A DNA stretch of 64,000 nucleotides from Trypanosoma brucei (GCA_000002445.1 CH464491.1:608001-672000); one strand, 5' to 3'; positions 8,053 to 43,180 are shown, counted from the stretch's first letter. Numbers and translations: made by a program. The notes: a model not told the origin generated them from the letters alone.

Positions 8053-9574
8053 GGCAGGGGTTTTAGGGTTAGGATTGTTCGGTTTTGTGCGTGTAGAGCA
8101 CAATGGTGAAAATGGTGATAATAGTAAATAACAATAATAGCGTGAAATAAAGGGAAAGGAAGAGAATCTTTTTTCTTTTTTCGGTTTTTTTTTGTGTTTC
8201 GGTTGTTGTCTGTGATGCGATTCTTTTTATTCTCTTCTTAGTCGTGCTTTGGTGTGCGGTTGCGCTGGCGGAATATTACCCCCTTTCTCTTTCTCATTCT
8301 CATTCTCCTCCCACCTTACTTTTTTACTACCTTCTGGGAGGATACTGTTTTGAATCACTTGCATTCCTCTCCTTAACATTTCGATACGAGGTGTTTTTCT
8401 TTGCCTCTCGGCACTCCATTTACCCCTTTGATGTATGTCATTATTAACTCTACGCAGTAATTTCCCCATTTTTGAAATCTCTTTAATTATTATTCGTGTT
8501 TTTGTACTCCTCCACCATTATTATTTTCTCTTTGGTTTATATATAACACATTCACTGGGAGTGCGATTATTTAAGGAGAGCGAATAATACGGTAACAACT
8601 CGGCCAACACTAACGAATAAAAAAAAGGAAGGGAGCAAATTCAGACGCATCGAAAAGAAACGGGACTAAAAGCACTTATCATCTGTCTTCCCAAAGTTCA
8701 GCAAAATGCTTCTAGGAGGTTTTGTTCCCCGCCGCTTCTCGCAGTTTAACCGCGACCCGTGTTGGATGTTCTTCATATTTTCTGTCGGCTTCTGGCTGGG
8801 CGAATATCCGGCGATGATGATCAAATATAATGCCCGTGACCTCGTGTATGACCCGCACCGGTACGTATGGTCCCACCATGACGACCATCACTAAACCCAG
8901 CTGCGTCCAAGGAGGGAAGGAGGAAAAAAAAAACAAACAAACAGACAAACTCTGAAGCTTACTGCAGTGAGTTAACCCGCCCGTTTTGTCTTTTTTATGT
9001 GATCATGCGTATACATATATATATATATATATATATGTGCGTTATTGCGTTTGTGTGTTTAGGGAAGTGGTACTTTGTTTCATTGAAGTGTAGAATGGAT
9101 GGGGTAATAGAAGTGTGCAGGTTTGGGGTGGAAGGTCAAAAGGGGACGAGGAGGGAAAAGAAGCCCTTAGAGTAACGGGAAGTGCTGTGTTTATTAGCGT
9201 ACACACAAATGCGCACAAACGCTACTGTTGCTGTGATTTTTATCGCCTCAATTTCACATTGTGGGCTCTTCCTTTGTTGCCTATGTGCTCGCCCTAGTTG
9301 TGCGTTGTTGTGGTGAAGCATTTGAGTGTGTAGTAGCCTCTGTAATAGTCGGTTGCTTATTTGTTCGTATGTGTATTGGTGTCTTCTCTGGGAGCCTCAC
9401 TTCCTCCTTTCGTTAATAAGTGATCATAATTTGTCCAAAGAAAAAATAAACCGTGAAAAAGACATAAAGGGGAAGAGAACAGCAACCGAACAAATAAGAG
9501 ATAGGGGTAGAGGGCAAAGAAGGAAAGAAAATATAAGGAGAAAAACAAAACAAAAATAACAACAACACATAGCC

Positions 9575-10300
9575 ATGTACAATAACGACTCGGCGGCAGG
9601 CGGCGACGCGTTGCAGGAGACTTGTGTGGACGCCATAACCAATATGGCGCGGCGCCTTGACCCCCAAGCACTCACAAAGGTTACCCAGTCGCTTCAGGAC
9701 ATGCTGGAGGAGAACCGTCAGCAGGTCGCGAACCGACGTGGCCGGGGGGGTTATCAGCAACACCAGCACCACCAGCAGCCACATCACTTCGGGCACCGTG
9801 GCAACGCGCGTCCGCCGCACGCAAATCGTCAATGGGGAAGCAACAATAACAGCAGGAACTACTATCAGTCTTCCAACGGTTACGATAACGGTAAATACCA
9901 GCGCGGTGGGCGTCCTCACCAGCACAACGACTGGAACGCGTCAAGTCGCCGCCATCAATCTCGGGGAGGTGGACGGGACTACGGTAACAGAGACGAAGAA
10001 CGGGTGTCAAACACAAACAGAGATCACAGTAACAGAGACGGGGACCGAAGCCCAGTCGCAGGCAACCGTTCTCCACCACGGGGACATCGGGAGGGAGCGG
10101 GTGCTCGCTCGAGTGGTCCCCACAACAGCAAAGTGGAGGAGGAAAATGAGCGGGGCGCGACCGAGAAACCATGTGAAGGGGGGAATGAGCGACCTCATCA
10201 CGGCCGGCACTGGGGCGGAGGTCGTGGAGCGGGTCGGGTCCGTCGCGGAGAGCGTCGACCCAACGGCCATAACGATGCCAAGGCAGATGGGCCTTCCTAA
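9575..10300 (+). CDS. hypothetical RG/Q/H/N-rich low-complexity protein (241 aa)
   Basis: ATG-initiated ORF. It is rich in RGG/RGGGR and NR/HQ stretches reminiscent of RGG-type RNA-binding tails. The frame assignment is ambiguous because GC-rich sequence also leaves two overlapping ORFs open (9657..10526 on +, and 9681..10409 on -). Confidence 0.4.
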   Translation: MYNNDSAAGGDALQETCVDAITNMARRLDPQALTKVTQSLQDMLEENRQQVANRRGRGGYQQHQHHQQPHHFGHRGNARPPHANRQWGSNNNSRNYYQSSNGYDNGKYQRGGRPHQHNDWNASSRRHQSRGGGRDYGNRDEERVSNTNRDHSNRDGDRSPVAGNRSPPRGHREGAGARSSGPHNSKVEEENERGATEKPCEGGNERPHHGRHWGGGRGAGRVRRGERRPNGHNDAKADGPS

Positions 10301-11129
10301 GGTTGGGGTTGAGAGAAAAGTAGTTGGGGAATGCCTTCCATTTCTTCCCCACATAAATTATTTTTATTTCCTTTGGTCTACCAGTTTCTTCCTCCTTCCA
10401 CCCGCACATATATATATATATATGTATTTATATATACATATGTGCATACATATACTTCTGCATCTTATCACTCCTGGTTCTCTTACCAGCGGGCTCCGCA
10501 GAGAGGCCAAGAGGGAAAGGATGTGAGAAGAGATGGAAGCGGGAGGGAGACGCATAAGCCATCGCAGGTAAATAATGGGGGGGATGATAAACGTGTATCA
10601 CCTTTGCTTGACTATGTACATGGAGGTAATGTGTTTGTGTCTATGTGTGCGCTGAGAAGTAGGATTTGATGGAGGTAAGCGAAAGAAAGAAATAAAAAGG
10701 ATGACCCCTGCACTGGGTGGCATTTGAACTGACTGGTCCAATAGAAAGATGAGCTATGGGGAAAATGCGGTGGTGAGAAGTAAATAATGATGCAGGTGAG
10801 AACGAGAGAGGGCACAGCATAAATAGGAGAGGTAGTGAAAGGACTTAAAAGGGAGAACAGGTAAGAAGACACGTTCGCAGAGATGAAGGTAAATCCGATG
10901 GTGAAAATGAGCGGAAAGAAGCGGAACAAACAAGCGCACTGCGATGCAAACTTTCGATGTATTTGGTGCTTCTGCGATTGGAGAAAGGAAAAGATGGATT
11001 TAATGAATGTGTCAGTAGCATTTGTGGTTGGCCCACGTGTTTGAGGAGGAGAGTTGATAATATGCTAGTACAAAGCGACTTCGGCAACGGGAACCACTGG
11101 AAGAGAATCGATAGGAAGGCAAATGGACT

Positions 11130-12945: not shown

Positions 12946-15900
12946 GAAAAGGGGAAGAAATAGATGTGTGAACCACAGGGATGTGGAGGGAAGAAGAGGG
13001 GAATTTACGCGCCTGTGGTTAAGAGAAGGTTGAAAAGAAAGGCAAAACAAGAGAGAAGGGAAATGTGAGAAATGTGTATGCATGTAAGTGTGCGCGATGT
13101 GTGTGGTGGGTGGTTTAGCTGATGCTTTAAAAGTTTCGAAGGTGTGCGCTGAAAACAGAGAAGTGCTGCGAGGGATAGAGGAGAAGATACATGAAGTTGA
13201 GAACAATGTCGAAAACAAAAACAAAATAAAAATGCGGGGGACCAGTTGGAGATTGGTGGGGTGAGGAAAGAAGAGACGTGAGGAGAGGGAAACGCTACAC
13301 AAAAATGGGTCTGAAAGACTTGTGGCTGTGAACAAGAATAAAAGACCTTAGATGATGCACCAGAGCTAAGGAGAAATGTCAGACGACTTACAGCACGCAC
13401 AGAGAACAATCAGAGTCAACATTCCGCATATATTTCTCTTGAATTTGGTTGTTGATTAATGGAGGACAATTCATTACAGGATGGAAAAGAAGATGTGTGT
13501 TTGTGTGTGGGAGAGAAAGGGAGAGGAGAAAAGAAAAGAAAAGAGACTTGTGTTTCCGTAGATTTCAACAACGGGAGAAGGAAGGAAGGAAGGAAGGAGG
13601 TTGCGAAATGTACGAAGAGTGACTCTCTTGATATATGAACGAGGCGGAAGGAACTGAAGCGAAGCGGCGCCATCGCAAAAAAAAAAAGAAAGAAAAGAGG
13701 GTCACTAGCGGCTGATTATGACGTTATTTCATGTGGAATGAAAGGGAAAACCGATAGGTATAAGAAGGTATGGATGTGCGTTTCTTCTTAAAACTTCGGC
13801 TCCCTCCACGGCGTACCACATAATAACGTTACATATTCGTCTAACTATTAATTTTTTTCTCTCTGTTCTCTTCACTTGTGTATTATACTGTGCTGTGTTG
13901 CGTTCCCACCTGAATGACAAGTTCCCCAATCTCCACTTTGTGCCTCACTATTTGTTACTAACAGAAGACAATCGGTGTGCGATGTGTTAAGAAACGCATG
14001 AACTCATCGAAAACTTTCGCTGTTGTAATATGAAAAGAGAGGAGGTAAAGAAAAGAAAAAAAAAGGAGAAATAAGAGATGTTATTGAACGAAGTACAATT
14101 GATAAGTGGGAGCTATGGGATTTTTTTTTTTTTGGGGGGGGCCGCAAACAAATGAAGATAATGGAGCGTACCGGTAATTTATGTGTGGAGAAGTAAAGAA
14201 ATGTCGGCTGAGTCGCGTGGTGCTTTTTCTCTTTTTTTTTGCTCTTTTTTTGTTTGGTTATGTTTCGCCTTTGTTGACTCTCAGTTATTTCATTACATTT
14301 ATTGGCGCTTTACTTCTCACTCTTTCCCTCCCTTAACTTCAGTCATCACAAAAGCCGTCTCCGTTTCATTTTCGCCAACTGGTAGTAAAAGAAGGAAACA
14401 AATGGTGAGGGAAAGGAGAGTGTAGAAACCAAAAATAAAAAAAAAGAGGGGAAGGGGAGAAAACAAAAAATAGTGGTGGGTTCCGCAGCGCTGACTTTTT
14501 GCATTCCTCTGTCACTTCTCTTTCTTTTGTTCTCTTTTCTTTTCTTTTCTTTTCTTTATTATTATTATTATTCTTCTTCTTCTTCATTCTTTCTCTTTCT
14601 CTTTTTCATATTTAACCACCGTTTTGTTACGCGCTTTCTTTGTTACTCCCACATTCCACATCCCTCTTCCCTTCTTTTTTCTTTTCCTTCTTTCGGTGGG
14701 TCTTTTTTCTTTTTTTTTTCCTTCGGTGTTCGCACTTGTGTTTTGCTGAAATATATTTATTTGTTTTTATCTTCTCTCTCTCTCTCTCTTTCCCTCCCTC
14801 CATCCTTTCCCAACCTCGTACCTCATCTAATTTCACACCATATGCACATTTTTGTGATTTTCTTTTTCATTTTCTTTTTATTTTATTTTACGTGTATGTG
14901 CGTATGTGCTAGTGTTGGTGTTTGGTGGTGGTGGTGTGGGAGGTGAAGAAATAGATAAGGGAAGGGAAGGGAAAGCGGATGGTGGTGTATTTTGTGTCTC
15001 TTTGCTTGTGTTTTCCACGAGATGAAAATGTTATTAGGCATTAGGACACAATAAAAAGACGCGTGGGACATATTTGCAAAGACAAGTGCGGCACGTTTTG
15101 TGAAATAAATGTTCACTGGCTGCAGTTCCGCTTATGGCTTCCGTAATGATTGTGGTTGGTATTACTTTTCTTTCTGGTTCGTAAAGCTGTTTTGTTTTTA
15201 TTATTATTCCCCCCCCTTTTCCTTTTCCTTTTCCCTTCTTCTCCTCCTCCTCCTCCTTCCTCTTCCCTCCTTCTTTGCGCTGTGCAGTTCTGGCTTTGTG
15301 TGTGGTTGTGTGTCTGTGGTGCATAAGCCTTGCATAACTGAATGAAATGAATGCAGGGCAAGAAATACCAAAAAAAAAAATAAAGAGAGAAGGAAGAAAG
15401 CAAGAAGAGCAGTTAGAGCAGTTGCTACCGTACACTTCATGTACCATAAGCAGCCTGTTAGCTTGACACCGAAAGTGGGCAGGAGTCATGAGACGGTCGA
15501 GGAAATTGGTTAACTTTTTCTCTTTTCTTTTCTTTTTAAATGAGTTGTTGTCGTGGTTGTTTATTGTGGCTTTTTCTTTTACTTTTTTTCTCGACTGGGT
15601 ATGTCCGAAGCAGGAAGATGGGAAGTATTGCCATCTTTTTCTTCCTTTTCTCTTGGCCTCTTTATTTATTATTGATTCGGCTTCATCGTCACCCTTTCAC
15701 GCGGTGTGAGTATGACGAAGGTGTGCGTGTCGCTGCAACCGGCGGAGTGGAAAATTATTTATTTATGCTTTTCTTTGCTTTCATTTACGATTCTCTTATT
15801 ACTACATGTACTGTAAAAAACTGTTCGTTTTCTTTCTTTTGCATTTCTCTTTTCTTCCATTGTCTTTCTTTTTTTTTTCGCTTGTTTTAAATTTTTATTG

Positions 15901-16295
15901 CTATATTATGCTCTCCCTGTTCCCTCCCTCCCCCAATAAGTAACCAAATTTATACACGCCAACTATCTGAGGCGGAGCAAAAATATTTGAGAAGAAACAA
16001 CAATTAAACATATTTCTTTTTTTTTTAAAAAAAAGAGAGGAAGAAAGCAAAGCCTGTAGGCAAGAGAGGAGGAAATCATTAGGAAGGAGAAACCAACAGG
16101 CCCCGTAAAAGATTTCCTCCTTTTTTTTTAAATTTCCAAAAAAGTGGCTTCTGTAAAAAGAAGCGTTTGTGTGCAGGTACGAAAGGTGTGTGGACAAAAA
16201 CTTGCGAGAGTAAACTCTGAGAGGGAGAGAAGGGGATTGTGTGTTTGGGACCAAAAGCAAGAGGTAATAGAGGAAAGGGGAAGGGATTAAAAAAT

Positions 16296-22321: not shown

Positions 22322-23164
22322 CGTGTTGCGTTTTTTTTCTGGTCGAAATAAAGCTACCATCAGAAGGTGAATTTGTTCCTTCCCTTCCACGCACATACCG
22401 ACGGACCGCGGAGGCGGGGAAACATGGCAATGCATTCCCTTCTCAGAAGTTGGTGGTTCTTTATCGGTTTTCCCGGTTTTTGCTTTTGTTTTCCAATTCG
22501 CTGTTAAAAATGAAAATCAGAGTCGAAAGGTGACGAAAAGAAATGTCTGAGGGATGAAACAACTGTTAGCGACGGTAAGCTGATGCTATATTGTGACGAC
22601 TGTGGCTCCGTCACTATTGCGTAGTGTATTTTTTTTATTCCGTTGCTTGCATGTACATGTAATACGGACAGCTTCACAACTCCGAGAGTGATTTGGGGTA
22701 CTCGGAGCCGCAAGTGCACGAGTTAAGTTGATGCCTGTGTGCGTGCAAATGAGTGGGTGCTTGAGGATACTTTATGGTGTGGTTATTTTCCTATTTCCCC
22801 CCCCTTGCTATTTGTGGCCTGCAGTGCCGTCGTACGTCGTATGCGTTCGTAAGCTTCAATTCCTTTGACTTTGTTGGTGGAATTACCCCGCGATAGTCGG
22901 CATCGCTCATGTGAGGTAGAGGGAGGTGGGATTATTATCTTCTGGGGTTCTGAAACCTTCAGCAAGTTTTGCTTGTTCACCCTCTCCCTTCTGCTTGCCA
23001 TTTTCAATTTTTTCCTTTTTTTAGTGCGGTAAGGGCGACCGTTGATGAGTAGGGTTGTTTTTAAAGCAAGGTTTTGAGGATCGATAGGAGAGCAGACTGA
23101 CAAAACAAAAAGGCCGTAGAATTTTCTTTTATTTTTTGCGTAATCGTTCTGAGGCTTGACGATC

Positions 23165-26100
23165 ATGACTACATGGCTCTTCAATGTAAGTGTCTTGCAT
23201 CTGTCTGCCTCCTTCTCTGAGCCGCGACTAGCCTCCTTCGCGGCTGAGGGACAACTCGCGTGTCGTATGTTTTTCAACGGAAAACCTCTCGATCTCACAT
23301 TTCAGCCCGCATCGGAGATGATTGGAGGGGGAAAACCCCAGTCTACTTTTCTTTACCGTATCCAATCCCTCACGGTTGCTGACCTTTTAAACATGTTGAG
23401 GCAGAGGTCTGTGAGGTTTTACATCGTTCCCGTGAAAAGGAACAGTGATCCGTTAGGTAAGGAGATACGGGCGGCCTGCAGAGCGACCACGAACATCATG
23501 TGCATAGCAGAGCGTGGGGGTGGGCTGCTTGAACTTCCCCTGACATCTGCTGCTTCAAAGGAAGAAGGAAATAGTGGTATTGTAGGTACTCTTTCGGTAT
23601 GTATTGCTTTTGATCAGTTAGCGGAAGTGGAGTTACGTCTCAAGGAGTTTTACGTCTCGGGCTTGGAAAATGGGATATATGGATTGCATTGTCGTCTTGC
23701 CCCCTTCAAGGAGGGTGTTGTGAGCAAGTTGACGCGGGCGCTGTCTGGCACCGCTCGGTGGACTGACGCCGAAGTGCCTATGGCGAAGTATCGGGGTGTG
23801 CTGCGTAACTTAAAAAAGCATCAGTTTGCTATAGCTGTTTATTTGATAGATGGCAATAATAACGAAAGGCCAGTCGCGTCGTTTGAAGTGGATTTAGCAA
23901 TCAAAAATACAAGTGCGTCCTGCAAAGAGATAACAATCCCATTCTCCATGAGTGATGGAAAGACATCAACAACGGTGAACGGGGCTCTTCAACTGAGCGG
24001 GTTACCGACCTTTGAGGACGAAATGCAAAAAATATTACGAGCAGGTCCGGCATGCGTTGACACTGAAGATGAAAAGAAAGAGAAAAACAAATTCTCAGAT
24101 CCCGAAGGGGCCAAGAGCTCAGAGGCCGAGAGCACCACAGAAATTGATACAGAAAACTCAAGTATGGGTCGCCATCTCCCCGAATATTCGCAGGGATCGT
24201 CCCCTCCAATTGTTTCGCGCACATCAACCCCTACAAGAGCGTCACCACGGGATATTTCTTCCCCACCTAGCGAAGATCAAGATGCTGAAGATTGTCGATT
24301 CAGCTTTCCGAGTAAAAACAGCATTTCTGCCCTTTGGCACTCTGAAGCAGATCTGGAATCTCCAACACCGCCACCTGAGAAGGACATGGATGTGCATGGT
24401 GATGTTCCACCGCCAACACCGCCACCTGAGAAGGACATGGATGTGCATGGTGATGTTCCACCGCCAACACCGCCACCCGAGAAGGACATGGATGTGCATG
24501 GTGATGTTCCACCGCCAACACCGCCACCCGAGAAGGACATGGATGTGCATGGTGATGTTCCACCGCCAACACCGCCACCTGAGAAGGACATGGATGTGCA
24601 TGGTGATGTTCCACCGCCAACACCGCCACCCGAGAAGGACATGGATGTGCATGGTGATGTTCCACCGCCAACACCGCCACCCGAGAAGGACATGGATGTG
24701 CATGGTGATGTTCCACCGCCAACACCGCCACCTGAGAAGGACATGGATGTGCATGGTGATGTTCCACCGCCAACACCGCCACCCGAGAAGGACATGGATG
24801 TGCATGGTGATGTTCCACCGCCAACACCACCACCCGAGAAGGACATGGATGTGCATGGTGATGTTCCACCGCCAACACCGCCACCCGAGAAGGACATGGA
24901 TGTGCATGGTGATGTTCCACCGCCAACACCGCCACCCGAGAAGGACATGGATGTGCATGGTGATGTTCCACCGCCAACACCACCACCCGAGAAGGACATG
25001 GATGTGCATGGTGATGTTCCACCGCCAACACCGCCACCCGAGAAGGACATGGATGTGCATGGTGATGTTCCACCGCCAACACCGCCACCCGAGAAGGACA
25101 TGGATGTGCATGGTGATGTTCCACCGCCAACACCGCCACCCGAGAAGGACATGGATGTGCATGGTGATGTTCCACCGCCAACACCGCCACCCGAGAAGGA
25201 CATGGATGTGCATGGTGATGTTCCACCGCCAACACCGCCACCCGAGAAGGACATGGATGTGCATGGTGATGTTCCACCGCCAACACCGCCACCTGAGAAG
25301 GACATGGATGTGCATGGTGATGTTCCACCGCCAACACCACCACCTGAGAAGGACATGGATGTGCATGGTGATGTTCCACCGCCAACACCGCCACCCGAGA
25401 AGGACATGGATGTGCATGGTGATGTTCCACCGCCAACACCGCCACCCGAGAAGGACATGGATGTGCATGGTGATGTTCCACCGCCAACACCGCCACCTGA
25501 GAAGGACATGGATGTGCATGGTGATGTTCCACCGCCAACACCGCCACCCGAGAAGGACATGGATGTGCATGGTGATGTTCCACCGCCAACACCACCACCC
25601 GAGAAGGACATGGATGTGCATGGTGATGTTCCACCGCCAACACCACCACCCGAGAAGGACATGGATGTGCATGGTGATGTTCCACCGCCAACACCACCAC
25701 CCGAGAAGGACATGGATGTGCATGGTGATGTTCCACCGCCAACACCACCACCCGAGAAGGACATGGATGTGCATGGTGATGTTCCACCGCCAACACCACC
25801 ACCCGAGAAGGACATGGATGTGCATGGTGATGTTCCACCGCCAACACCGCCACCCGAGAAGGACATGGATGTGCATGGTGATGTTCCACCGCCAACACCA
25901 CCACCTGAGAAGGACATGGATGTGCATGGTGATGTTCCACCGCCAACACCACCACCCGAGAAGGACATGGATGTGCATGGTGATGTTCCACCGCCAACAC
26001 CGCCACCCGAGAAGGACATGGATGTGCATGGTGATGTTCCACCGCCAACACCGCCACCCGAGAAGGACATGGATGTGCATGGTGATGTTCCACCGCCAAC

Positions 26101-27475
26101 ACCACCACCCGAGAAGGACATGGATGTGCATGGTGATGTTCCACCGCCAACACCACCACCTGAGAAGGACATGGATGTGCATGGTGATGTTCCACCGCCA
26201 ACACCGCCACCCGAGAAGGACATGGATGTGCATGGTGATGTTCCACCGCCAACACCACCACCCGAGAAGGACATGGATGTGCATGGTGATGTTCCACCGC
26301 CAACACCACCACCTGAGAAGGACATGGATGTGCATGGTGATGTTCCACCGCCAACACCACCACCCGAGAAGGACATGGATGTGCATGGTGATGTTCCACC
26401 GCCAACACCACCACCCGAGAAGGACATGGATGTGCATGGTGATGTTCCACCGCCAACACCGCCACCCGAGAAGGACATGGATGTGCATGGTGATGTTCCA
26501 CCGCCAACACCGCCACCCGAGAAGGACATGGATGTGCATGGTGATGTTCCACCGCCAACACCGCCACCTGAGAAGGACATGGATGTGCATGGTGATGTTC
26601 CACCGCCAACACCACCACCCGAGAAGGACATGGATGTGCATGGTGATGTTCCACCGCCAACACCGTCACCTGAGAAGGACATGGATGTGCATGGTGATGT
26701 TCCACCGCCAACACCGCCACCTGAGAAGGACATGGATGTGCATGGTGATGTTCCGATGGTTGTGGAGGGTAGTGCAAATGTTGATTCTTCATGTGTGCTT
26801 GTTTGTAGTGGAGGTGCTGAAGAAGTTGTTGATGTCCCTGCAGATCTTGAATCGGTTGATGATGAAAATGTTTATGTTTCCGAATTGCAATCCACTGCTG
26901 TTTTGAATGAAGATGTTACATTGTTGTTAGATGAATGTGACAGAATGGTGGTAGGTCGTGACGAGGGTGCCTCTGGTAGATCTGTTGGCGTGCCAACACT
27001 ACAGGCTTCTAATTTAATAGAATTTCCACCGCCATCAAATGGAAAAGAACCTGCTACCTCGAGGGAAGAGGCAGCTGATCTTCTTTTAACACGTGAGAGG
27101 GAACTGCTCGATGCGATGGAACATGAGAATGAGTGTATTGACATGCTTGTGCAGTCTCTTAGAAGGATGGATAATGCATCTGAGAAGGATAGGGCTGCTT
27201 ATTGTGCCGAAGTGGACAGGTTGCAGCAGCAGTTTAAGCTGCTGGATGAAGCGGAGGAGGAGCTGACGTTGCTGCTGGCGCGTGCCACCCAAAGGTTTAA
27301 TTTATGTCGTGAGGAACGTCGGAAATCACAGTTGGAGCTCTTGGAGGCGCGCGCGCGGAAGGAAACGTACAGTTTGGCACTTGCTATGATGGACCGGGAG
27401 TTGCGTACACAGTTTGATAACGATGGCAACCGTCGCCCAGGAGGGATGTTCCTATCCAAAAGTGACTCTTCATAA
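23165..27475 (+). CDS. large tandem-repeat protein
   Basis: This is one continuous ORF, with the first ATG at 23165 (track start 23156 is TTG). Protein architecture: a unique ~400-aa N-terminal region, then 47 tandem 17-aa repeats (PPPTPPPEKDMDVHGDV), then a ~240-aa C-terminal region with coiled-coil character (LLTRERELLDAMEHENE...LQQQFKLLDEAEEELTLL). The repeat DNA is nearly invariant, with only synonymous changes plus one Pro-to-Ser change. No stop codon interrupts the array. Confidence 0.85.
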   Translation: MTTWLFNVSVLHLSASFSEPRLASFAAEGQLACRMFFNGKPLDLTFQPASEMIGGGKPQSTFLYRIQSLTVADLLNMLRQRSVRFYIVPVKRNSDPLGKEIRAACRATTNIMCIAERGGGLLELPLTSAASKEEGNSGIVGTLSVCIAFDQLAEVELRLKEFYVSGLENGIYGLHCRLAPFKEGVVSKLTRALSGTARWTDAEVPMAKYRGVLRNLKKHQFAIAVYLIDGNNNERPVASFEVDLAIKNTSASCKEITIPFSMSDGKTSTTVNGALQLSGLPTFEDEMQKILRAGPACVDTEDEKKEKNKFSDPEGAKSSEAESTTEIDTENSSMGRHLPEYSQGSSPPIVSRTSTPTRASPRDISSPPSEDQDAEDCRFSFPSKNSISALWHSEADLESPTPPPEKDMDVHGDVPPPTPPPEKDMDVHGDVPPPTPPPEKDMDVHGDVPPPTPPPEKDMDVHGDVPPPTPPPEKDMDVHGDVPPPTPPPEKDMDVHGDVPPPTPPPEKDMDVHGDVPPPTPPPEKDMDVHGDVPPPTPPPEKDMDVHGDVPPPTPPPEKDMDVHGDVPPPTPPPEKDMDVHGDVPPPTPPPEKDMDVHGDVPPPTPPPEKDMDVHGDVPPPTPPPEKDMDVHGDVPPPTPPPEKDMDVHGDVPPPTPPPEKDMDVHGDVPPPTPPPEKDMDVHGDVPPPTPPPEKDMDVHGDVPPPTPPPEKDMDVHGDVPPPTPPPEKDMDVHGDVPPPTPPPEKDMDVHGDVPPPTPPPEKDMDVHGDVPPPTPPPEKDMDVHGDVPPPTPPPEKDMDVHGDVPPPTPPPEKDMDVHGDVPPPTPPPEKDMDVHGDVPPPTPPPEKDMDVHGDVPPPTPPPEKDMDVHGDVPPPTPPPEKDMDVHGDVPPPTPPPEKDMDVHGDVPPPTPPPEKDMDVHGDVPPPTPPPEKDMDVHGDVPPPTPPPEKDMDVHGDVPPPTPPPEKDMDVHGDVPPPTPPPEKDMDVHGDVPPPTPPPEKDMDVHGDVPPPTPPPEKDMDVHGDVPPPTPPPEKDMDVHGDVPPPTPPPEKDMDVHGDVPPPTPPPEKDMDVHGDVPPPTPPPEKDMDVHGDVPPPTPPPEKDMDVHGDVPPPTPPPEKDMDVHGDVPPPTPPPEKDMDVHGDVPPPTPPPEKDMDVHGDVPPPTPSPEKDMDVHGDVPPPTPPPEKDMDVHGDVPMVVEGSANVDSSCVLVCSGGAEEVVDVPADLESVDDENVYVSELQSTAVLNEDVTLLLDECDRMVVGRDEGASGRSVGVPTLQASNLIEFPPPSNGKEPATSREEAADLLLTRERELLDAMEHENECIDMLVQSLRRMDNASEKDRAAYCAEVDRLQQQFKLLDEAEEELTLLLARATQRFNLCREERRKSQLELLEARARKETYSLALAMMDRELRTQFDNDGNRRPGGMFLSKSDSS
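24356..26755 (+). repeat. 51-bp tandem repeat array, 47 copies, in frame within the CDS 23165..27475
   Basis: The unit is ccaacacc[g/a]ccacc[t/c]gagaaggacatggatgtgcatggtgatgttccaccg, repeated head-to-tail. The only variable positions are two third-codon positions (ccg/cca and cct/ccc) and a single c>t change (Pro to Ser) in unit 46. The periodicity leaves three + frames and three - frames open, which explains the 800-960-aa 'ORFs' in every other frame. Confidence 0.97.
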
Positions 27476-29389: not shown

Positions 29390-31450
29390 GACCACTTCCG
29401 TTTGGTATCGTTTTCGTGTCCGTGGACGTTGGGGCGCTCGTGCACGTTGTGTGTAATGAAGTAAATTTGAAATAGATGAGTGGTTAGCGTCATAAAGCTG
29501 TGGGTAGCAAGTAATTTCGTGTCAGACGCGTCATTTGTTTTGTCGAGTCGTTTACGGTGTGCCATCAATCGGAGTTTTTTTTTCCTTAAAAAAACTGTAG
29601 TTGATTCTTTAACGAAGGGTGCCGTGCTCCCTTACGGTGATGCGTTCATACGCTGTGCAAGAGTAAAAGGAGGGGGGTGGGGTAAGAAAGTTTGATTATT
29701 ATTATTACTACTACTTGTGGAAGGCTTTGAGTGAACTGTGGAGAAGTGTCGTGCCTAACGAGTCGGTGTTTACCCCAACGGCATGATGGCGGTGCTTCGG
29801 TAAAACTCGTACCATACGATGAGGGGAAGCAACGAGAGGCGCATAAAATGTTGAAGAAATGACTGGGTAATTAAGTATCTAATTAAAGAATACTAAATAT
29901 CTTTTGATACCGCTAGGAGTGTAACAACACGAAACCTGTGTATGTATTTGTGGTGTCGCTTTAGATACGAGTGAAGTGAAGGGAAGAAGAGGAGACCGAT
30001 GGCGTGCCGGCGGCAGTAAATGGTTGGAAAGAAACAAAAGGTGCGTTTTTGTGTCTTTTTCGGAATTGATAGTAATGAGAGGAAGTCGGGGATCTGTGGC
30101 TCTTATGATTTTTCGTTCACATGGTTCTGCAGTAACGTGTTTCAACAGTACTTTTTTTTTTCCTTGTGTTTGGAGTCTCCTCACCACTGTTTTTTCCTGC
30201 GACTTCCTCTCATTGCCCCTCCCTTTACTGTTGAGACTTTGTGGTGCGGTTGCTAGAGAGGGTTAAAGGGGAGAGGAAAAAAAAGAGAGAATAGGGATGA
30301 AGGTACTACGGGCGTTTACGTGCGACTGCACGAACGAGTCGTGGTTTGTTTCCCTAAAACATTTACGCTTCTATACGCATTAGCACGCACTCAAATATAT
30401 AGTCAAGACAACATTGGTTACTTTTTTGAGTACTGTTGCCTAACCGCTAATATTTCCCTATTTTGGACTTCTCGTCGTTGCACTCCCACACATATCTAAC
30501 TGAAATCACATCTACACACTCATCTGTCGTAGTTCCTCTTTTTTATTTTCCTTTATATGTTCTGGGATGTGGGGTTCTGTCCCTTTTCCCTGAGTTTTGT
30601 CCCGGGGGGGGGGGGGCCGAGGCGCTTTACGACCCTTGCGTTGATCTTAATTCCCCTCTCCATTATACTTCTTCGTCTTTCCATTTTCTTTTTTTGCTTC
30701 ACCGGAGGCGATCCCCCTCAAGAGGAGTTTCATTCTCTTTTGACTATATTTATTCATATAAAGGAAGTATCCGTATTTGTACTGGATGGTGTCACGTACA
30801 GCTCTTAACATGATCCAGTTGGAAGATCACTAGCGGTTGGGGAAGAGAGGGGGGGGGGCGGAGGGACATTGCCACAATTTGAAATTGTCGGGGTTGTTCT
30901 CTGTTCTCTCTTTCCCGTTTCTGTTGTATTTAATGATCATGTCCTTAGGAAAGTAGCGAATGGAGGTATTTATTGCGAATTCGTTTGGTTCGTCACGACT
31001 TAACGTGCGGTAACCGATGAATGTGGAAGAGTACAGCTTTTAATCATCGACACGTGATGCTAGGGTTGGTTGTTTGGTGTACGGGGACTGCATACAGCGT
31101 TGAAGGTGATACGAATTAAAAACTTCGTGTGGGAGCCAAGGATGCGGTGTTTGGGGATTCGTTTTTTTATTTCTTTCGTTTACGTTGTCAACTTTTGGTT
31201 TGACGCGCCGGGGTGTTCGAATACGTTAAGCGCTCCGCACCCTTCGTGCCTTTGTTGTCAGGTTCGTATCGGTAGCGTTGCTCTGTGTTGAAGTGTGTTC
31301 ATTATTATTTTTTTTTGGGGGTGGCTATTAGCTAACGGACACGCAGATATAAATGAATATATATATGTACTCATGTACCATTGTATTCATCACCAGACAC
31401 ATTTGAAGACTAACTGCTCTTTTCATGTATTTTTTCTCCTATTAAAGAAT

Positions 31451-34400
31451 ATGTATAAGCAGCACACGAACTTTGCGGCGGCAAACACTCCCCTCTTCAC
31501 GCAGCTGTTCGGTTCTGTTGCTGCAGACACCTCGAAACCACAGCAGCGAGTCGAAAAGGACACTTCAGAAGAATTTAATCGGCGTAATTCGGCGGATCCG
31601 GCTCAGCTTTCCCGTGGAAGAATTGTGGAGATGCAGTCGTCTGGAAGTAAACGTTACCAAACTGCTGATAGTGCTACTCAAACCACTCTGCCATGTAGCG
31701 AGGTTGTTGGATCAAATACCGAGGAAACAACCCAGAACTTCTTACGAGCCTGCCAACCTCAGGAAGTTGGACCGCCGCCGTGTGCTGAATTCAAACCGAT
31801 GGATGTTGAAGGTGGGGCTGATATCTCCGTGGAAGATGATGTACCTGCATGGAAGAAACCCACAATTCCCTTCCGGAAGATGATGCAAGAGTTGGAAAAG
31901 CGCTTCCACGAGCAAATGGATGTGCATCGCGGGCTTAAGTCTACGATGGAGCGCCTTGATGTTCTCCGAAGTGAAATTTCTCTCTACCAAGCTGAACAAC
32001 GCACAGCAAAGTTGGCCGAAGCATTGCACCAGAAAAATGCTTATTCGATTGAAAGAGCTGCGCAACTCTCTGCTTCCGCTTATGCTTATGCGGAATCTCT
32101 CTCTGCATTTTCTCCAAAGCCGCCTCCTGCAATCACGACTGCTCCGCCCCAGCAACAAACGAAGGCGGCTGCTTCCGAGACCACCCCGTTTCTCAAAAGC
32201 ATTTTGGAGTCTTATCAGAAGGAGCGCGAGGGCAAGACACGTGGGAAGAATGGAGAAGCCACTGATGTTCCCGTGAAGAAGGCGCTGTCTGTGGATATTA
32301 TTCGTCAGCCGGAAGAACCGCTTCCGTACAAGCGCGTATATTATGTGCCTGTTGTGGAGGAGAAACCTAATAGTGTGAGCGCCGTCAGGGAAGATGGTGT
32401 AAATGATGTTAACTCAACAGTGAGAGAAGGGAATGGAGCAGGAGCTTCCACTTCTTCCGTTAGTGTCGTTGCCGCAGGCCCTTCAGCGGCATCAAATTCC
32501 GAAATTTCTATTGAAAGCGGCGGTGTATCAGCGAACACTTCTGTGGGGAGCTCTGAAGTGGGCACGAATGTGATTTCTCAGAGCTTGGACACGGATCAGG
32601 TAAGTGAAACCAGATCCCTATCCGCTGCATCCTCCAGAAATTCACCTCCCTCTCCAACATCTTCGACACCATCCGTTAATGAGCTTTCCGCCTCAACGGG
32701 GCATTCATCCATCGCCGACGAGACTGGAAGCAGCATTAAAAGCTCTCACTCGACTAATATCCTCGCCACGCGAAATGAAGGCAAAGCGGAACCGCTGGTG
32801 ACGACACTTAAAGAATTTTATCGTGCCTGTGGAAATGCCAACCGTCTCATGCAGGCCCTACTTGGAAGAAATATTCGCCTGACAGCGGTAACGCCGAAAA
32901 AGAAAGGAGACGCATATAAAGAGAGGGAAGAGCACTCTGCCTCGTCCGAAAGTAGCGATAGCCGAAATGTGAAACAGAGTGAAAAACCCGAGTGGTTGGC
33001 TGCTTTGAAGCGCGATGTGAGAGATATTCGGAAGCTCCGACGGTTTATTGATCGCATGAAGCGGAATATTAAGTCGATTGACTGTCATCACCGTGCTCAG
33101 GAAGTGCGGCGAAAACTGTTTGTGAAAGCACAGCGGCTCGCAAAAGCACAACGACGGGTTCGGAACAACATGGATGCGGTGTCGGACGTTATGGATGAAA
33201 TCGCGGACATAATTAGAAGTGATGCCAGTGGTGCTGGTGATGAAGACGAGGTGGTGGATGATATTTCTGTAGCATTTTCTGCGGAGGGTAGCGACAGCAT
33301 CATGGATGAAGTCGATGATGAATTTAACTTCGGCGGAACGACGCGAAGTGGAGGCGGCATCTCAGATGAGGTGGATGATGAGGTGGTGGACGAGTTGCAG
33401 CAGAGTCGCTTAGGGAGTGCTGATGATGATGTCGTAACCGATGTTGTCAGTGAACTCAGTTGGGCAAAGGAGGAGAGTGATTTTGCCGAGGCGCTCGCGG
33501 AAGTGAGTGACATCAATGACTTGTTGGATGACGAAGTTCCTCTTCCTGATGAGGAATCTCTGATGGACGATGTTGTTGATGAGGATCTACCACCTGCTTC
33601 CTCTATAGAAACAGAAGGGAGTATTGAAGACCGTGTCGCGGCCGCTGGTGTTGATGATGTCGCTGATAACGTTATCAGTGGCGCCGTCGACGGCATTGTT
33701 GATGATGTTGAGGATGCTGCCTCGTCCGCCGTGATCACTGAGGAGTCGAGTGCTGATAATGCTGATGTGTCCAGCGTTATGCCGGCCTCTTCCGCTTCTA
33801 CCCGATCGTCAGAAGACACTGAGGATAGCGTGAAGCGTATGAGAGATATGAGTATGAGCAGAATTTATGATGATACAGAATCGGCGGAGAGTGCTCTTAA
33901 TGAACTAGAACGCGCTATGAGGATACCGACGAAGCAGCGCTCTCTGTCAAGTTCTGGGGCTCACCCGGTAAACTTCTTGGGGCTGGACATACAAAATGCG
34001 ATGAGTGCCGAAACCCTTGTAACCGAGGAATTAAAGGACGGATACGTGGTCAGGTCCGACTCTCATACATGGGAAAGCACTCTCCATAATGACGTTGCTT
34101 TCCCCCCTGCTCCCGCCGATATTACCCTCAGTGCTGATATAAACACGAACCCACCCACTCTGCGAAGTCTTTCCACGCCGACGAGCGTTGCTTCAGTGGC
34201 GGGTCTACCAGTGAAGGCTCCAGGTTGCGCTAATTACGAAACCGATGATATCGTTGCTCAGCTTAACTGGAAGGAACGGCAGCTGCTTCTATTTGAGAAG
34301 ATTCACCCAAAAACGATGTGGACTCAGGCAGAGACTGAGGACACACCAGCGGATGCGGAGGGGCCCGTCGAGGGTCGAGCGGGGTACCACTGGGGAATGT

Positions 34401-34516
34401 TAGAGACGCTCCTTCAGTATCGCTTTGCCCTTAATGCCGTCGACGAAGCTCATGATGACATTACTGATTACGTTGATGATTTCGAAGACATTATTTTTGA
34501 TGATTACGATGCCTAG
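31451..34516 (+). CDS. hypothetical acidic Ser/Asp/Val-rich protein (~1021 aa)
   Basis: The track ORF starts at GTG 31295. In-frame ATGs are at 31373 and 31451. I prefer 31451 because a second polypyrimidine tract (ttttcatgtattttttctcctattaaag) with an AG sits immediately upstream, and because residues 1-52 of the long version are a hydrophobic low-complexity stretch. The C-terminal third carries degenerate D/E-V-D-D repeats (DEVDDE, VDDVAD, DDITDYVDDFEDIIFDDYDA). No domain recognised. Confidence 0.65.
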   Translation: MYKQHTNFAAANTPLFTQLFGSVAADTSKPQQRVEKDTSEEFNRRNSADPAQLSRGRIVEMQSSGSKRYQTADSATQTTLPCSEVVGSNTEETTQNFLRACQPQEVGPPPCAEFKPMDVEGGADISVEDDVPAWKKPTIPFRKMMQELEKRFHEQMDVHRGLKSTMERLDVLRSEISLYQAEQRTAKLAEALHQKNAYSIERAAQLSASAYAYAESLSAFSPKPPPAITTAPPQQQTKAAASETTPFLKSILESYQKEREGKTRGKNGEATDVPVKKALSVDIIRQPEEPLPYKRVYYVPVVEEKPNSVSAVREDGVNDVNSTVREGNGAGASTSSVSVVAAGPSAASNSEISIESGGVSANTSVGSSEVGTNVISQSLDTDQVSETRSLSAASSRNSPPSPTSSTPSVNELSASTGHSSIADETGSSIKSSHSTNILATRNEGKAEPLVTTLKEFYRACGNANRLMQALLGRNIRLTAVTPKKKGDAYKEREEHSASSESSDSRNVKQSEKPEWLAALKRDVRDIRKLRRFIDRMKRNIKSIDCHHRAQEVRRKLFVKAQRLAKAQRRVRNNMDAVSDVMDEIADIIRSDASGAGDEDEVVDDISVAFSAEGSDSIMDEVDDEFNFGGTTRSGGGISDEVDDEVVDELQQSRLGSADDDVVTDVVSELSWAKEESDFAEALAEVSDINDLLDDEVPLPDEESLMDDVVDEDLPPASSIETEGSIEDRVAAAGVDDVADNVISGAVDGIVDDVEDAASSAVITEESSADNADVSSVMPASSASTRSSEDTEDSVKRMRDMSMSRIYDDTESAESALNELERAMRIPTKQRSLSSSGAHPVNFLGLDIQNAMSAETLVTEELKDGYVVRSDSHTWESTLHNDVAFPPAPADITLSADINTNPPTLRSLSTPTSVASVAGLPVKAPGCANYETDDIVAQLNWKERQLLLFEKIHPKTMWTQAETEDTPADAEGPVEGRAGYHWGMLETLLQYRFALNAVDEAHDDITDYVDDFEDIIFDDYDA

Positions 34517-41537: not shown

Positions 41538-43124
41538 ATGAGCCGTCCGTATACCAAAGGAGGTGGCCCCAACCGAGCCGACAGCCGAAGGCGACGGAAA
41601 GGTGACTACGATCGTGATGTCCTCACCGATCGCGGTGGACATAATAGCAGTTGGAATGCTAAACCTGATAGAAGTCGGCGAGGCAGTCGGGGTGGTTCCG
41701 GTCCGCCGGGAAAAGGGACTGGCGGTAGTGATAATCAAGTCCCGCAGTCAACAATGATGACAACTCTGTTGGACCTTCTCTTTCAGAAGTCTTCCAGTGT
41801 CATCTTCAACCGGGAGTCTGGCATGTTAAATCTTTCAAACTTCAGTCAGTCTCAGGATCTTACTGATGTTCGAAAGAGTGTGGACTTTAACAACGTCACA
41901 TTCTGCCGGAGCCTTGTGAGTGTCATCAAGAGTCACATGGGGTCGATGCTACGGGCTGTTGCTGTCAACGACAATAAGATAACCAAATTGTCTGTTTTCT
42001 TGTCGGCGTTGGTGGAGGCTGACCTTCACATTGGGATCACAGCGTTATCGGCCACCGGGAACACCATTGACGACCTCTCCTTTATTGGACCCCTGAAACG
42101 TTTTGTTAACCTTGGTGAATTAGTTTTAAAGGAGAACCCCGTAACGAGACGGGAGGATTACAATTCAAGTGTGATTCAAAAGGTCAAGTCACTCATGATG
42201 CTTGACGACAAGGTTATTAACCGCGCACCGTTGCGCCTCCCCAACCCAATACCATCAAGCCTTTCGCAACTTCAGTTTCAGGTTTTATATTTCCTTGAGG
42301 CTGACGTTTTCTCCGCTGCGGCGGAAGGGAAATGGGATACCCTGACGGGGGTCTATGCTAAAAATGCCCTCTTTAGTGTTAGTCGTTCAGAGGAACCCAT
42401 TGCGTGCCGCATCCCATTTGATGCGAAGCACAAATCAGACACACTAAACCCAACCCAGCGCAAGGTAATGACAGACGACTTCGTTTTTTTGCGTAAGAAT
42501 GTGCCATGGCGGAATCTTCACGTAGAAATTCATTCTTTACGTTCCATCGCTTGCGGGCAAACGAAGGCTGTGAAAGCCATCAATATCCTCGGAGGGGGTG
42601 AGAGAAAGTTTTTTTCCGTATCGCATGAACTCAATGGTAATGCCAATGTTGTGTTCCTATCGGACAACATGGCGGTACCAACATGTGTCCTAACAATTCA
42701 TGGAAGGTTGTTTTGGCACTGGTCACCAATAGATGGTGGCGAAAAGATATTTGCGCGCGATGATGCCCCTTTTGTGAGTTGTTTTTTCCACCGCACCATG
42801 TCCTTAACGTTGGACCCAAACGGGACGACATGGTCGGTGCACAATGATATGATGTTTCTTCGCCCTGACCGACTCCTCCGGCAGGAAAGTGGTGAAAAGG
42901 CCCTTCCTATGTTCTTTGCGAATGATCCCATGCGAATTGAGGAAATGCGGCGTCGGTACCTTCCACAAGCAAAAACTGATGTGATGAAAACCATTGTGGA
43001 AGCCGTAAGCAGCGATGCCGACGTTGTAGGTTTTATTCAGAATTGTCTTGCGAAACTGCCACCGGATCAACTGGAAATCGCCTTGTCGGCAAGTGATGTC
43101 ATGGCAAACTTACTTGGAGGTTAA
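41538..43124 (+). CDS. MEX67b: NXF/Mex67-family nuclear mRNA export factor paralogue lacking the CCCH finger (Mex67b-like)
   Basis: It is collinear with the ORF at 52345 from the LRR region onwards. Aligned blocks include MLNLSNFSQSQDLTDV versus VLNLTQFKEIPDLTDV, GELVLKENPVTRREDY versus REIVLRDNPIANRSDY, and KSLMMLD versus KKLMPSLIGLD. The N-terminus is basic and RG-rich with no C3H motif. The LRR is followed by an NTF2-like region. Confidence 0.7.
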   Translation: MSRPYTKGGGPNRADSRRRRKGDYDRDVLTDRGGHNSSWNAKPDRSRRGSRGGSGPPGKGTGGSDNQVPQSTMMTTLLDLLFQKSSSVIFNRESGMLNLSNFSQSQDLTDVRKSVDFNNVTFCRSLVSVIKSHMGSMLRAVAVNDNKITKLSVFLSALVEADLHIGITALSATGNTIDDLSFIGPLKRFVNLGELVLKENPVTRREDYNSSVIQKVKSLMMLDDKVINRAPLRLPNPIPSSLSQLQFQVLYFLEADVFSAAAEGKWDTLTGVYAKNALFSVSRSEEPIACRIPFDAKHKSDTLNPTQRKVMTDDFVFLRKNVPWRNLHVEIHSLRSIACGQTKAVKAINILGGGERKFFSVSHELNGNANVVFLSDNMAVPTCVLTIHGRLFWHWSPIDGGEKIFARDDAPFVSCFFHRTMSLTLDPNGTTWSVHNDMMFLRPDRLLRQESGEKALPMFFANDPMRIEEMRRRYLPQAKTDVMKTIVEAVSSDADVVGFIQNCLAKLPPDQLEIALSASDVMANLLGG

Positions 43125-43180
43125 GAAGGGAATATAAAGAAGACATCAAAGTTGTAATACCAGTGCAGTCCTAGTTCGTC

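What the first reader, a model, noticed from the sequence alone, without database searches (positions are those of the whole stretch)
24356..26755. A 2.4-kb array of 47 near-identical 51-bp repeats inside a single 1436-codon gene
Forty-seven head-to-tail 51-bp units encode a PPPTPPPEKDMDVHGDV 17-mer. All but two positions of the 51 bp are identical across every copy. Such DNA-level identity implies recent expansion or ongoing concerted evolution (unequal crossover or gene conversion). The host protein has a unique ~400-aa N-terminal domain and a C-terminal coiled-coil. Kinetoplastid proteins of this type are commonly cytoskeleton- or flagellum-associated and immunodominant. The copy number in this assembly could be collapsed or expanded relative to the true locus. 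I cannot name the gene; it may be an under-characterised repeat antigen.
Basis: seen in the sequence. Interest (0 to 1): 0.75.

Follow-up and report, generated by a model that had tools for sequence, protein, structure and literature searches.

The report
Coding 51-bp repeat in trypanosome C2 protein
The 47-copy, 51-bp repeat is real and sits in frame in the floppy middle of an uncharacterised Trypanosoma brucei-group protein; this is a common kind of feature in these parasites, and its copy number differs between genome assemblies.

Summary
Window 24356..26752 holds 47 head-to-tail 51-bp units, in frame in one 1436-codon gene (23165..27475, + strand). Only two unit positions are commonly polymorphic, and both changes are synonymous.

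The window is from the T. brucei group: its eRF1 is about 100% identical to the T. equiperdum protein. By counting locus numbers between EIF4E1 and Mex67b, the gene is probably Tb927.11.2290, a "hypothetical protein, conserved".

The N-terminus is not a single 400-aa domain. It is two C2 beta-sandwiches (aa 1-292) followed by an acidic disordered linker. The C-terminus is a roughly 120-aa helical, coiled-coil-like region conserved across Trypanosoma.

Orthologues in T. vivax, T. cruzi, T. rangeli, T. grayi and T. theileri have no array. A probable T. congolense orthologue has a related 16-aa repeat starting at the same residue. T. vivax and T. rangeli carry single-copy PPPDT-like motifs in the linker, so a linker motif was probably amplified after T. 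vivax split off.

T. b. gambiense DAL972 has 36 units in a different order. In T. equiperdum, two contigs end inside the array.

The most likely role is a long acidic proline-rich spacer or multivalent motif platform; this is inferred, not shown. It is a new member of a known kind and of modest interest.

The parts
23008..23024 (+). Polypyrimidine tract (TTTTTTCCTTTTTTT) followed by AG, about 141 nt upstream of the ATG. Candidate trans-splice acceptor; inferred only.
   Evidence: sequence scan. The function rests on general knowledge of kinetoplastid trans-splicing and was not tested.
23165..27475 (+). Complete coding sequence: 1436 codons plus stop, about 155 kDa, pI 4.4. Probably Tb927.11.2290.
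   Evidence: Searches give the ORF. One search shows the start is supported by the conserved MxxWLF N-terminus in five orthologues. One search gives mass and pI. The locus number is inferred by counting genes between EIF4E1 (Tb927.11.2260) and Mex67b (Tb927.11.2340).
23165..23617 (+). First C2-like beta-sandwich (aa 1-151), mildly basic (pI 8.8).
23618..24040 (+). Second C2-like beta-sandwich (aa 152-292), mildly basic (pI 8.6).
24041..24355 (+). Acidic, Ser/Thr-rich disordered linker 1 (aa 293-397).
   Evidence: pLDDT below 50 from residue 296 of the model. Composition. Poorly conserved in orthologues.
24356..26752 (+). 47 tandem 51-bp units encoding PPPTPPPEKDMDVHGDV (aa 398-1196): 35% Pro, net charge about -138.
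26753..27064 (+). Acidic linker 2 (aa 1197-1300), non-repetitive.
   Evidence: Weakly conserved.
27068..27427 (+). Conserved C-terminal helical, coiled-coil-like region (aa 1302-1421).
   Evidence: Aligns with the C-termini of the T. rangeli, T. cruzi marinkellei, T. grayi and T. theileri orthologues. The AlphaFold2 model has helices at residues 2-37 and 40-121 with pLDDT 89.6.

Best explanation
The array is an in-frame coding minisatellite. It lies in the intrinsically disordered middle of a fast-evolving protein found so far only in Trypanosoma. That protein has two N-terminal C2 domains, an acidic linker and a C-terminal helical (coiled-coil-like) region.

Origin (supported): a short proline/acidic linker motif of the form PP(P/D)T-x-PP ... 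D-x-GDV is single-copy in T. vivax and T. rangeli. It was amplified in the lineage leading to T. brucei and (probably) T. congolense. Since then it has been homogenised separately in each species, and reshuffled between T. brucei-group strains, by unequal recombination, gene conversion or replication slippage.

Function (inferred): the C2 pair is mildly basic and has no invariant aspartates, so it is probably Ca2+-independent. It would dock the protein on a membrane or a cytoskeletal surface, and the C-terminal helix would mediate self-association or partner binding. The 799-residue array (35% Pro, net charge about -138) would act as a long, stiff, highly charged polyproline-II-like spacer with a contour length up to about 250 nm. 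It would also display 47 copies of a conserved proline motif for multivalent binding. Copy number would set reach and valency.
For: Anatomy:
- Array and frame.
- The T. cruzi marinkellei orthologue is named 'C2 NT-type domain-containing protein' by UniRef.
- C-terminal helix: pLDDT 89.6, conserved in orthologues.
- No invariant Asp among the 29 invariant columns of A1.
- Charges and pI.

Species:
- eRF1 is about 100% identical to T. equiperdum, 96% to T. congolense and 91% to T. vivax.
- 12.7 kb of a T. equiperdum contig is 99.84% identical to the window.

Origin of the array:
- Orthologues in T. rangeli, T. cruzi marinkellei, T. grayi and T. theileri, T. vivax (syntenic) and T. cruzi have no array.
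- P0001 is 41% identical in the C2 region, the closest relative outside the T. brucei group. It carries 16-aa repeats (PPPLELSDGDVPPDTV) that begin at residue 398, as here.
- The two units share the core GDVPPxTxPP. Alignment score is 38 against 20 +/- 6 for shuffles; 4 of 200 shuffles reach it.
- Single-copy PPPPDTAPP occurs in T. vivax and SPPDTAADIGDV in T. rangeli, in the same part of the linker.

Turnover:
- T. b. gambiense DAL972 has 36 units. It shows only the position-21 polymorphism, and its unit order cannot be aligned to the window's, while its flanks are 396/397 and 239/241 aa identical.
- All four combinations of the two polymorphic sites occur.
- The A15 variant clusters in the second half of the array, 3 versus 14.
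- Unit order shows a 3-unit (153-bp) periodicity, permutation p about 0.001.
Against: - There is no experimental datum on location, partners or phenotype. The only literature hit for the presumed locus number is a yeast two-hybrid prey list for SF3a60.
- Evidence for selection on the peptide is weak. Two of two common variants are synonymous, but about 31% of transitions would be synonymous anyway, so p is about 0.1.
- No Pfam model recognises the C2 domains, so the fold rests on a model built from only 6 sequences.
- The single-copy 'seed' motifs are short and proline-rich and could be chance matches.
- P0001's species is inferred, not given, and the protein is truncated.
- Spacer and valency roles are plausible for any long acidic proline-rich array and are not specific predictions.
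Confidence: 0.55

Rival explanations
1. Neutral expansion. The array is a selectively tolerated minisatellite in a disordered linker. Its length drifts through slippage and unequal exchange, and it has no length- or sequence-dependent function. The protein works through its C2 pair and coiled coil alone.
For: Five orthologues do without any array yet keep both flanking domains. Copy number and unit order differ freely between near-identical strains. The linker is otherwise poorly conserved. The synonymous-only pattern is not significant.
Against: An array at the same residue persists in two species that are only about 41% identical in the folded domain, and a conserved GDVPPxTxPP core is retained. 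No unit carries a frameshift or stop in 47 + 36 copies. However, recent homogenisation would also give that result.
Confidence: 0.3
2. Immunodominant repeat antigen or decoy. As with other kinetoplastid tandem-repeat proteins (for example GM6), the main consequence of the array is strong, T-independent-like B-cell recognition. That could be useful for serodiagnosis and might divert the antibody response.
For: High copy number and identity fit the class of tandem-repeat B-cell antigens cited in the trypanosome serodiagnosis literature. The unit is charged and hydrophilic.
Against: There is no signal peptide or transmembrane segment, since the N-terminus is the first strand of a conserved C2 domain. 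The protein is therefore intracellular and seen by the host only after lysis. Antigenicity would then be a by-product, not a mechanism. Nothing was tested here.
Confidence: 0.15
3. The array is real, but the figure of 47 is an assembly product, collapsed or expanded. The differences from DAL972 would then reflect assembly rather than biology.
For: Two T. equiperdum short-read contigs end 71 bp into the array and 30 bp before its end. DAL972 has 36 units with a scrambled order. At 98-99% unit identity over 2.4 kb, the array exceeds short-read and Sanger read lengths.
Against: The window array has ordered internal structure: regional clustering of the A15 variant and a 3-unit periodicity. Both assemblies keep the reading frame. 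The T. equiperdum edge units carry the A15 variant that DAL972 lacks, so at least some variation is real.
Confidence: 0.3

Closest known systems
Kinetoplastid tandem-repeat proteins (e.g. GM6/ClpGM6, FAZ1, FLAM3, MARPs)
   Same: Large, near-identical, in-frame tandem arrays lie inside big intracellular proteins that also contain coiled coils. ClpGM6, FLAM3 and FAZ1 are all listed with repeats and coiled coils in the FAZ review (PMC4827413). Arrays of this kind are used as serodiagnostic antigens.
   Different: The unit here is different: 17 aa, proline/acidic. The flanking domains are also different (tandem C2). No localisation or antigenicity data exist for this gene, and it is not in the 2016 table of known FAZ proteins.
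T. brucei CC2D (Tb927.4.2080), the coiled-coil and C2 domain FAZ-filament protein
   Same: It combines a C2 domain with a coiled coil in a trypanosome cytoskeletal protein (PMC4827413).
   Different: It is a different locus, has one annotated C2 domain and is listed without repeats. From memory, its domain order is the reverse of the one here. Sequence relatedness was not tested because no CC2D sequence was available.
NT-C2 (N-terminal C2) family: EHBP1, EEIG1, plant PMI1
   Same: The C2 fold starts at residue 1-2 of the protein and is followed by a long non-globular region and a C-terminal coiled coil. UniRef names one orthologue 'C2 NT-type domain-containing protein'. [quoted passage not shown]
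   Different: No Pfam model, which would include NT-C2, reaches E of 10 or better for any of six orthologues. There are two C2 domains here rather than one.
Tandem-C2 proteins: extended synaptotagmins, copine/BON1, ferlins, ciliary central-pair C2 proteins, CEP120
   Same: Two consecutive C2 sandwiches. The best Foldseek hits are a 335-aa ciliary-tip central-pair C2 protein (9nw3_3A, E 3.9e-9), BON1 and E-Syt2 C2A-C2B. CEP120 also pairs several C2 domains with a C-terminal coiled coil (the C2A hit is; the architecture is from memory).
   Different: Sequence identity is only 5-15%, and TM-scores of about 0.3 reflect single-domain or differently oriented matches. There is no SMP, vWA or transmembrane module. 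There are no conserved Ca2+-binding aspartates. The matches are generic to the C2 fold, not to one family.

Membership tests
Kinetoplastid tandem-repeat (TR) protein class | In-frame tandem array of many near-identical units inside a protein-coding gene | tested here: met
   47 units, 98% identity, no indels, in frame with conserved flanking domains.
Kinetoplastid tandem-repeat (TR) protein class | Recognition by antibodies of infected hosts (B-cell antigen) | not testable with these tools
   Needs serology with the 17-mer or a recombinant array.
C2 domain superfamily | Eight-stranded beta-sandwich of C2 topology | tested here: met
C2 domain superfamily | Ca2+-binding aspartate cluster in the top loops (classical Ca2+-dependent C2) | tested here: not met
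   None of the 29 invariant columns of the six-orthologue alignment is Asp. The domains are therefore probably Ca2+-independent.
NT-C2 family (Pfam NT-C2 / PROSITE C2 NT-type) | Significant match to the family profile | tested here: inconclusive
   Pfam gives no hit at E of 10 or better for any of six orthologues. However, UniRef names the T. cruzi marinkellei orthologue 'C2 NT-type domain-containing protein'. The PROSITE profile could not be run here.
NT-C2 family (Pfam NT-C2 / PROSITE C2 NT-type) | C2 domain at the extreme N-terminus | tested here: met
   The first strand spans residues 2-17 and the MxxWLF start is conserved.
CEP120-like centriolar proteins | Three C2 domains plus a C-terminal coiled coil, with sequence homology to CEP120 | tested here: not met
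Extended synaptotagmin / synaptotagmin-like tandem C2 proteins | Membrane anchor and SMP domain (E-Syt), or a transmembrane segment, preceding C2A-C2B | tested here: not met
   The C2 pair starts at residue 1. No other Pfam domain is present. The rest of the protein is a disordered acidic region followed by a helix.
Tb927.11.2290 (T. brucei TREU927 locus) | Position between ALIX and eRF1 on chromosome 11, three locus numbers after EIF4E1 (Tb927.11.2260) and five before Mex67b (Tb927.11.2340) | tested here: inconclusive
   The gene order is EIF4E, WD40, ALIX, this gene, eRF1, a 1073-aa ORF, strumpellin, ThiF, Mex67b. That fits numbering in steps of ten between the two published IDs. No sequence or annotation of Tb927.11.2290 could be retrieved to confirm it.

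The most novel reading that the evidence does not exclude
The amplified unit is a functional short linear motif, with core GDVPP(P/D)TxPP conserved between T. brucei and T. congolense and single-copy in T. vivax. The array would then be a multivalent, FH1-like proline-ligand platform anchored to a membrane or microtubule surface by the C2 pair. It would recruit many copies of a proline-recognition partner (profilin-actin, or a WW/GYF-type protein), or drive condensate formation. Strain-variable copy number would tune valency. This would be a lineage-specific scaffold built by motif amplification in salivarian trypanosomes.
Probability: 0.1. Interest if true: 0.55.

Novelty: new member of a known kind. 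Interest (0 to 1): 0.3.

Why it matters
Practical value:
- The array is a documented assembly breakpoint, and its copy number varies within the T. brucei group. It could therefore serve as a strain-typing minisatellite, and it is a caution for annotation.
- Its 17-mer is a cheap candidate serodiagnostic peptide specific to the T. brucei group.

Biological value:
- The work gives a previously blank "hypothetical protein" a domain architecture: a tandem C2 pair, a repeat spacer and a coiled coil.
- It gives a dated origin for the repeat, after the T. vivax split, from a single-copy linker motif.
- It provides a testable example of how disordered linkers grow by motif amplification.

None of this overturns current understanding. 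Repeat-bearing cytoskeletal or scaffold proteins are common in trypanosomes.

Tried and rejected
- The search for homologous proteins with the N-terminal 397 aa, and again with the six-orthologue alignment, returned nothing. The word-indexed database evidently misses these proteins. The exhaustive phmmer search found six.
- Exact look-ups failed for the window's eRF1, for P0001, for the T. congolense eRF1 and for the full 1436-aa protein. Look-ups via P0007 and ALIX succeeded.
- Pfam on the N- and C-terminal parts and on all orthologues gave no family. A profile search of PDB sequences gave nothing.
- The afdb50 fold library was unavailable.
- Literature searches for the repeat peptide, for generic repeat terms and for guessed old-style IDs Tb11.18.0005-0010 gave nothing useful.
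- Rfam found no RNA family anywhere in the window.
- Alternative reading frames were rejected. Five other ORFs of 799-964 aa cross the array only because the unit has no stop in any frame. None is continuous with the conserved flanking domains, and the gene cluster is all on the + strand.
- A secreted, mucin-like reading of PPPTPPP (O-glycosylated hinge) was rejected, because the N-terminus is a conserved C2 strand and not a signal peptide.
- Proline-directed phosphorylation of the Thr-Pro site as a conserved function was rejected. The Thr is followed by Val in P0001 and by Ala in T. vivax.
- A degenerate extension of the array into its flanks was looked for and not found.
- A syntenic Leishmania orthologue was looked for next to eRF1, but synteny is broken there.
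Full report
**1. The observation**

Tandem Repeats Finder reports a single array at 24362..26754: period 51, 46.9 copies, 98% matches, no indels, score 4569. It is the only array in the whole window at score 80 or above.

Read in the frame of the long ORF, the array is 24356..26752. That is exactly 47 units of 17 codons encoding PPPTPPPEKDMDVHGDV.

Two unit positions are commonly polymorphic: position 15 (G 30 / A 17) and position 21 (C 34 / T 13). Both are third codon positions and synonymous. Beyond these, unit 1 differs at four bases (ES for PP), and unit 46 has one C>T change (Pro>Ser).

All six frames are open across the array, so an open frame is not evidence of coding here. The coding frame is fixed by conserved protein domains on both sides of the array, which lie in the same frame.

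**2. Where the window comes from**

All ORFs of 200 aa or more outside the array are on the + strand or overlap such an ORF. They encode:
- carnitine acyltransferase
- an eIF4E
- a WD40 protein
- ALIX/BRO1
- the repeat protein
- eRF1
- a 1073-aa protein of unknown family
- strumpellin
- a ThiF/rhodanese enzyme
- two Mex67-like proteins
- PheRS-beta
- a PGK-like protein with a cNMP-binding domain

The eRF1 is about 100% identical to T. equiperdum eRF1, 96% to T. congolense, 91% to T. vivax and 80-82% to Leishmania. A T. equiperdum contig is 99.84% identical to the window over 12.67 kb. T. b. gambiense DAL972 chromosome 11 is about 98.4% identical. The window is therefore from the T. brucei group (Trypanozoon).

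Published IDs are EIF4E1 = Tb927.11.2260 (PMC8608314), Mex67b = Tb927.11.2340 and Mex67 = Tb927.11.2370 (PMC12774637). Seven genes lie between EIF4E1 and Mex67b in the window. If numbering runs in steps of ten, the repeat gene is Tb927.11.2290. This is an inference.

The only full-text mention of Tb927.11.2290 is as a "hypothetical protein, conserved" in a yeast two-hybrid prey list for SF3a60 (PMC3961280).

**3. The protein**

The ATG at 23165 gives 1436 aa (155 kDa, pI 4.4). An exhaustive phmmer search of 1.84 billion representatives with aa 1-397 found six proteins at E of 0.001 or better. Five are relatives (E 1e-16 or better); the sixth (P0006, E 2e-4) is an unnamed 2616-aa metagenome protein. 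The five relatives are:
- T. rangeli, 660 aa
- T. cruzi marinkellei, 647 aa, named by UniRef "C2 NT-type domain-containing protein"
- T. grayi, 539 aa
- T. theileri, 635 aa
- P0001, a truncated 464-aa entry (UPI00021AB95E)

Synteny look-ups added a T. vivax orthologue (651 aa, between ALIX and eRF1) and a T. cruzi orthologue (647 aa). The start MxxWLF is conserved.

The protein evolves fast. The folded N-terminal region is only about 30% identical between T. brucei and T. vivax or T. cruzi, and 41% identical to P0001. P0001 is clearly not T. vivax, so it is most likely T. congolense (inferred).

No Leishmania relative was detected, and synteny around eRF1 is broken in Leishmania.

*N-terminal region.* An AlphaFold2 model of aa 1-314 built on the six-sequence alignment has pLDDT 82.7 and pTM 0.73. 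It shows two beta-sandwiches, at about residues 1-151 and 152-292, followed by disorder.

Pfam recognises nothing in this region. No invariant column in the alignment is Asp, so classical Ca2+ binding is unlikely. Both domains are mildly basic, with pI 8.8 and 8.6.

*Rest of the protein.* The remainder is strongly acidic. Linker 1 has charge -10, the array -138 and linker 2 -15.

The last 136 residues or so align with the C-termini of the orthologues. They are predicted as helices at model residues 2-37 and 40-121 with pLDDT 89.6.

**4. Origin and dynamics of the array**

None of the T. vivax, T. cruzi, T. cruzi marinkellei, T. rangeli, T. grayi or T. theileri orthologues has internal repeats.

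P0001 has 16-aa repeats (PPPLELSDGDVPPDTV). They start at residue 398, the same residue as here, and after a similar E(P)S boundary. The two units align on the core GDVPPxTxPP, with score 38 against 20 +/- 6 for shuffled units; 4 of 200 shuffles reach the observed score.

In the same part of the linker, T. vivax has a single PPPPDTAPP and T. rangeli a single SPPDTAADIGDV.

The simplest reading is that a linker motif was amplified after T. vivax diverged and was then homogenised separately in each species. Independent amplification of the same motif in the two lineages is not excluded.

*Within the T. brucei group:*
- DAL972 has 36 units in a 1249-aa protein (TRF 35.9 copies).
- DAL972 shows only the position-21 polymorphism (13 C / 23 T) and has no A15 variant.
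- Its order of unit types aligns with the window's no better than shuffles do.
- The flanking protein is 396/397 and 239/241 aa identical.
- T. equiperdum's edge units carry A15.

*Within the window array:*
- All four combinations of the two polymorphic sites occur.
- A15 is concentrated in the second half, 3 versus 14.
- Unit types show a 3-unit periodicity, with lag-3 identity 0.52 and permutation p about 0.001. This suggests expansion partly in 153-bp blocks.

These are the signatures of unequal exchange or gene conversion.

*Assembly caveat.* In T. equiperdum, one contig ends 71 bp into the array and another begins 30 bp before its end. The array defeats short-read assembly, so neither 47 nor 36 can be taken as certain.

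**5. How it most likely works**

Shown: the architecture, the conservation of the two end modules across the genus, the lineage-restricted array and its rapid turnover.

Inferred:
- The basic, probably Ca2+-independent C2 pair docks on an acidic membrane or a cytoskeletal surface.
- The C-terminal helix mediates self-association or partner binding.
- The 799-residue array (35% Pro, charge -138) behaves as an extended polyproline-II-like bristle, with a contour length of about 250 nm at 0.31 nm per residue. It separates the two ends and displays 47 copies of a conserved proline motif.

Evidence for selection on the peptide is weak. Both common variants are synonymous, but p is only about 0.1. 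A neutral minisatellite in a tolerant linker therefore remains a serious rival.

Immunodominance is plausible by analogy with GM6-type repeat antigens. For an intracellular protein it would be a by-product rather than a mechanism.

**6. Comparison with known systems and verdict**

The feature belongs to the well-known class of kinetoplastid tandem-repeat proteins. FAZ1, ClpGM6 and FLAM3 all combine repeats with coiled coils (PMC4827413).

The C2 plus coiled-coil combination recalls T. brucei CC2D (Tb927.4.2080), the NT-C2 family and CEP120. Membership of each of these either fails or is inconclusive (see the membership table).

The gene is already annotated as a conserved hypothetical in the DAL972 assembly and, by inference, in TREU927. 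Three things appear not to be in the searchable literature: the tandem-C2 assignment, the dating of the array and its derivation from a single-copy motif.

It is an ordinary kind of feature, a new member of a known kind, and of modest interest (0.3).

Noticed in passing
window 24012..26906 (+ strand, other frame) and 24242..26792 (three - strand frames): The 51-bp unit has no stop codon in any of the six frames. As a result, five spurious ORFs of 799-964 aa overlap the real gene. A naive ORF caller could annotate any of them.
   Followed up: yes
window 24356..26752, unit positions 14-15 and 21-22: Both common polymorphic sites are transitions inside CpG dinucleotides. The unit has three CpGs, at positions 5, 14 and 21. 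Among third-codon positions the chance of this is roughly 0.04. It could be coincidence, a mutational bias, or a basecalling or assembly effect.
   Followed up: partly
window 24356..26752: The order of unit variants shows a 3-unit (153-bp) higher-order periodicity, with lag-3 identity 0.52 against about 0.3 and permutation p about 0.001. The A15 variant is regionally clustered, 3 in the first half and 14 in the second.
   Followed up: partly
L001 (T. equiperdum CZPT02000812.1) position 1 = window 26723; L003 (CZPT02001928.1) end = window 24426: Two contigs of the T. equiperdum assembly GCA_001457755.2 terminate inside this array, so the gene is split and partly missing there. A 239-aa C-terminal fragment is called as a separate gene.
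   Followed up: yes
L009 / L010 (T. cruzi) 3232..5034 and 7797..9761: In T. cruzi the interval between ALIX and eRF1 holds two extra genes: a 600-aa protein of unknown family and an ABC transporter. Both are absent from this interval in the T. brucei-group window and in T. vivax.
   Followed up: no
L008 (Leishmania martiniquensis CM030422.1): Synteny is broken around eRF1 in Leishmania. A Mex67-like gene and two small ORFs lie upstream and a BAR-domain gene downstream. There is no ALIX and no C2/coiled-coil gene nearby.
   Followed up: no
window 41538..43124 and 52345..54072: Two Mex67-like paralogues (LRR plus NTF2-like) lie 9 kb apart. They match the published TbMex67b (Tb927.11.2340, 58 kDa) and TbMex67 (Tb927.11.2370).
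   Followed up: partly
window 55970..58711: A 913-aa ORF combines a phosphoglycerate-kinase domain with a cyclic-nucleotide-binding domain. This is an unusual fusion.
   Followed up: no
window 31295..34516: A 1073-aa ORF between eRF1 and strumpellin has no Pfam family. It is conserved in position in T. vivax (1098 aa) and T. cruzi (928 aa).
   Followed up: no
window 9575..10526: ORFs of 241-289 aa overlap on both strands with no Pfam match. One of them (241 aa) is a called gene in the DAL972 and T. equiperdum annotations.
   Followed up: no
window 4783..9575, 14001..16000 and 43124..47273: Long stretches without large ORFs have low G+C, 0.36-0.39 against about 0.46-0.50 elsewhere. They are presumably long UTRs or intergenic regions.
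   Followed up: no
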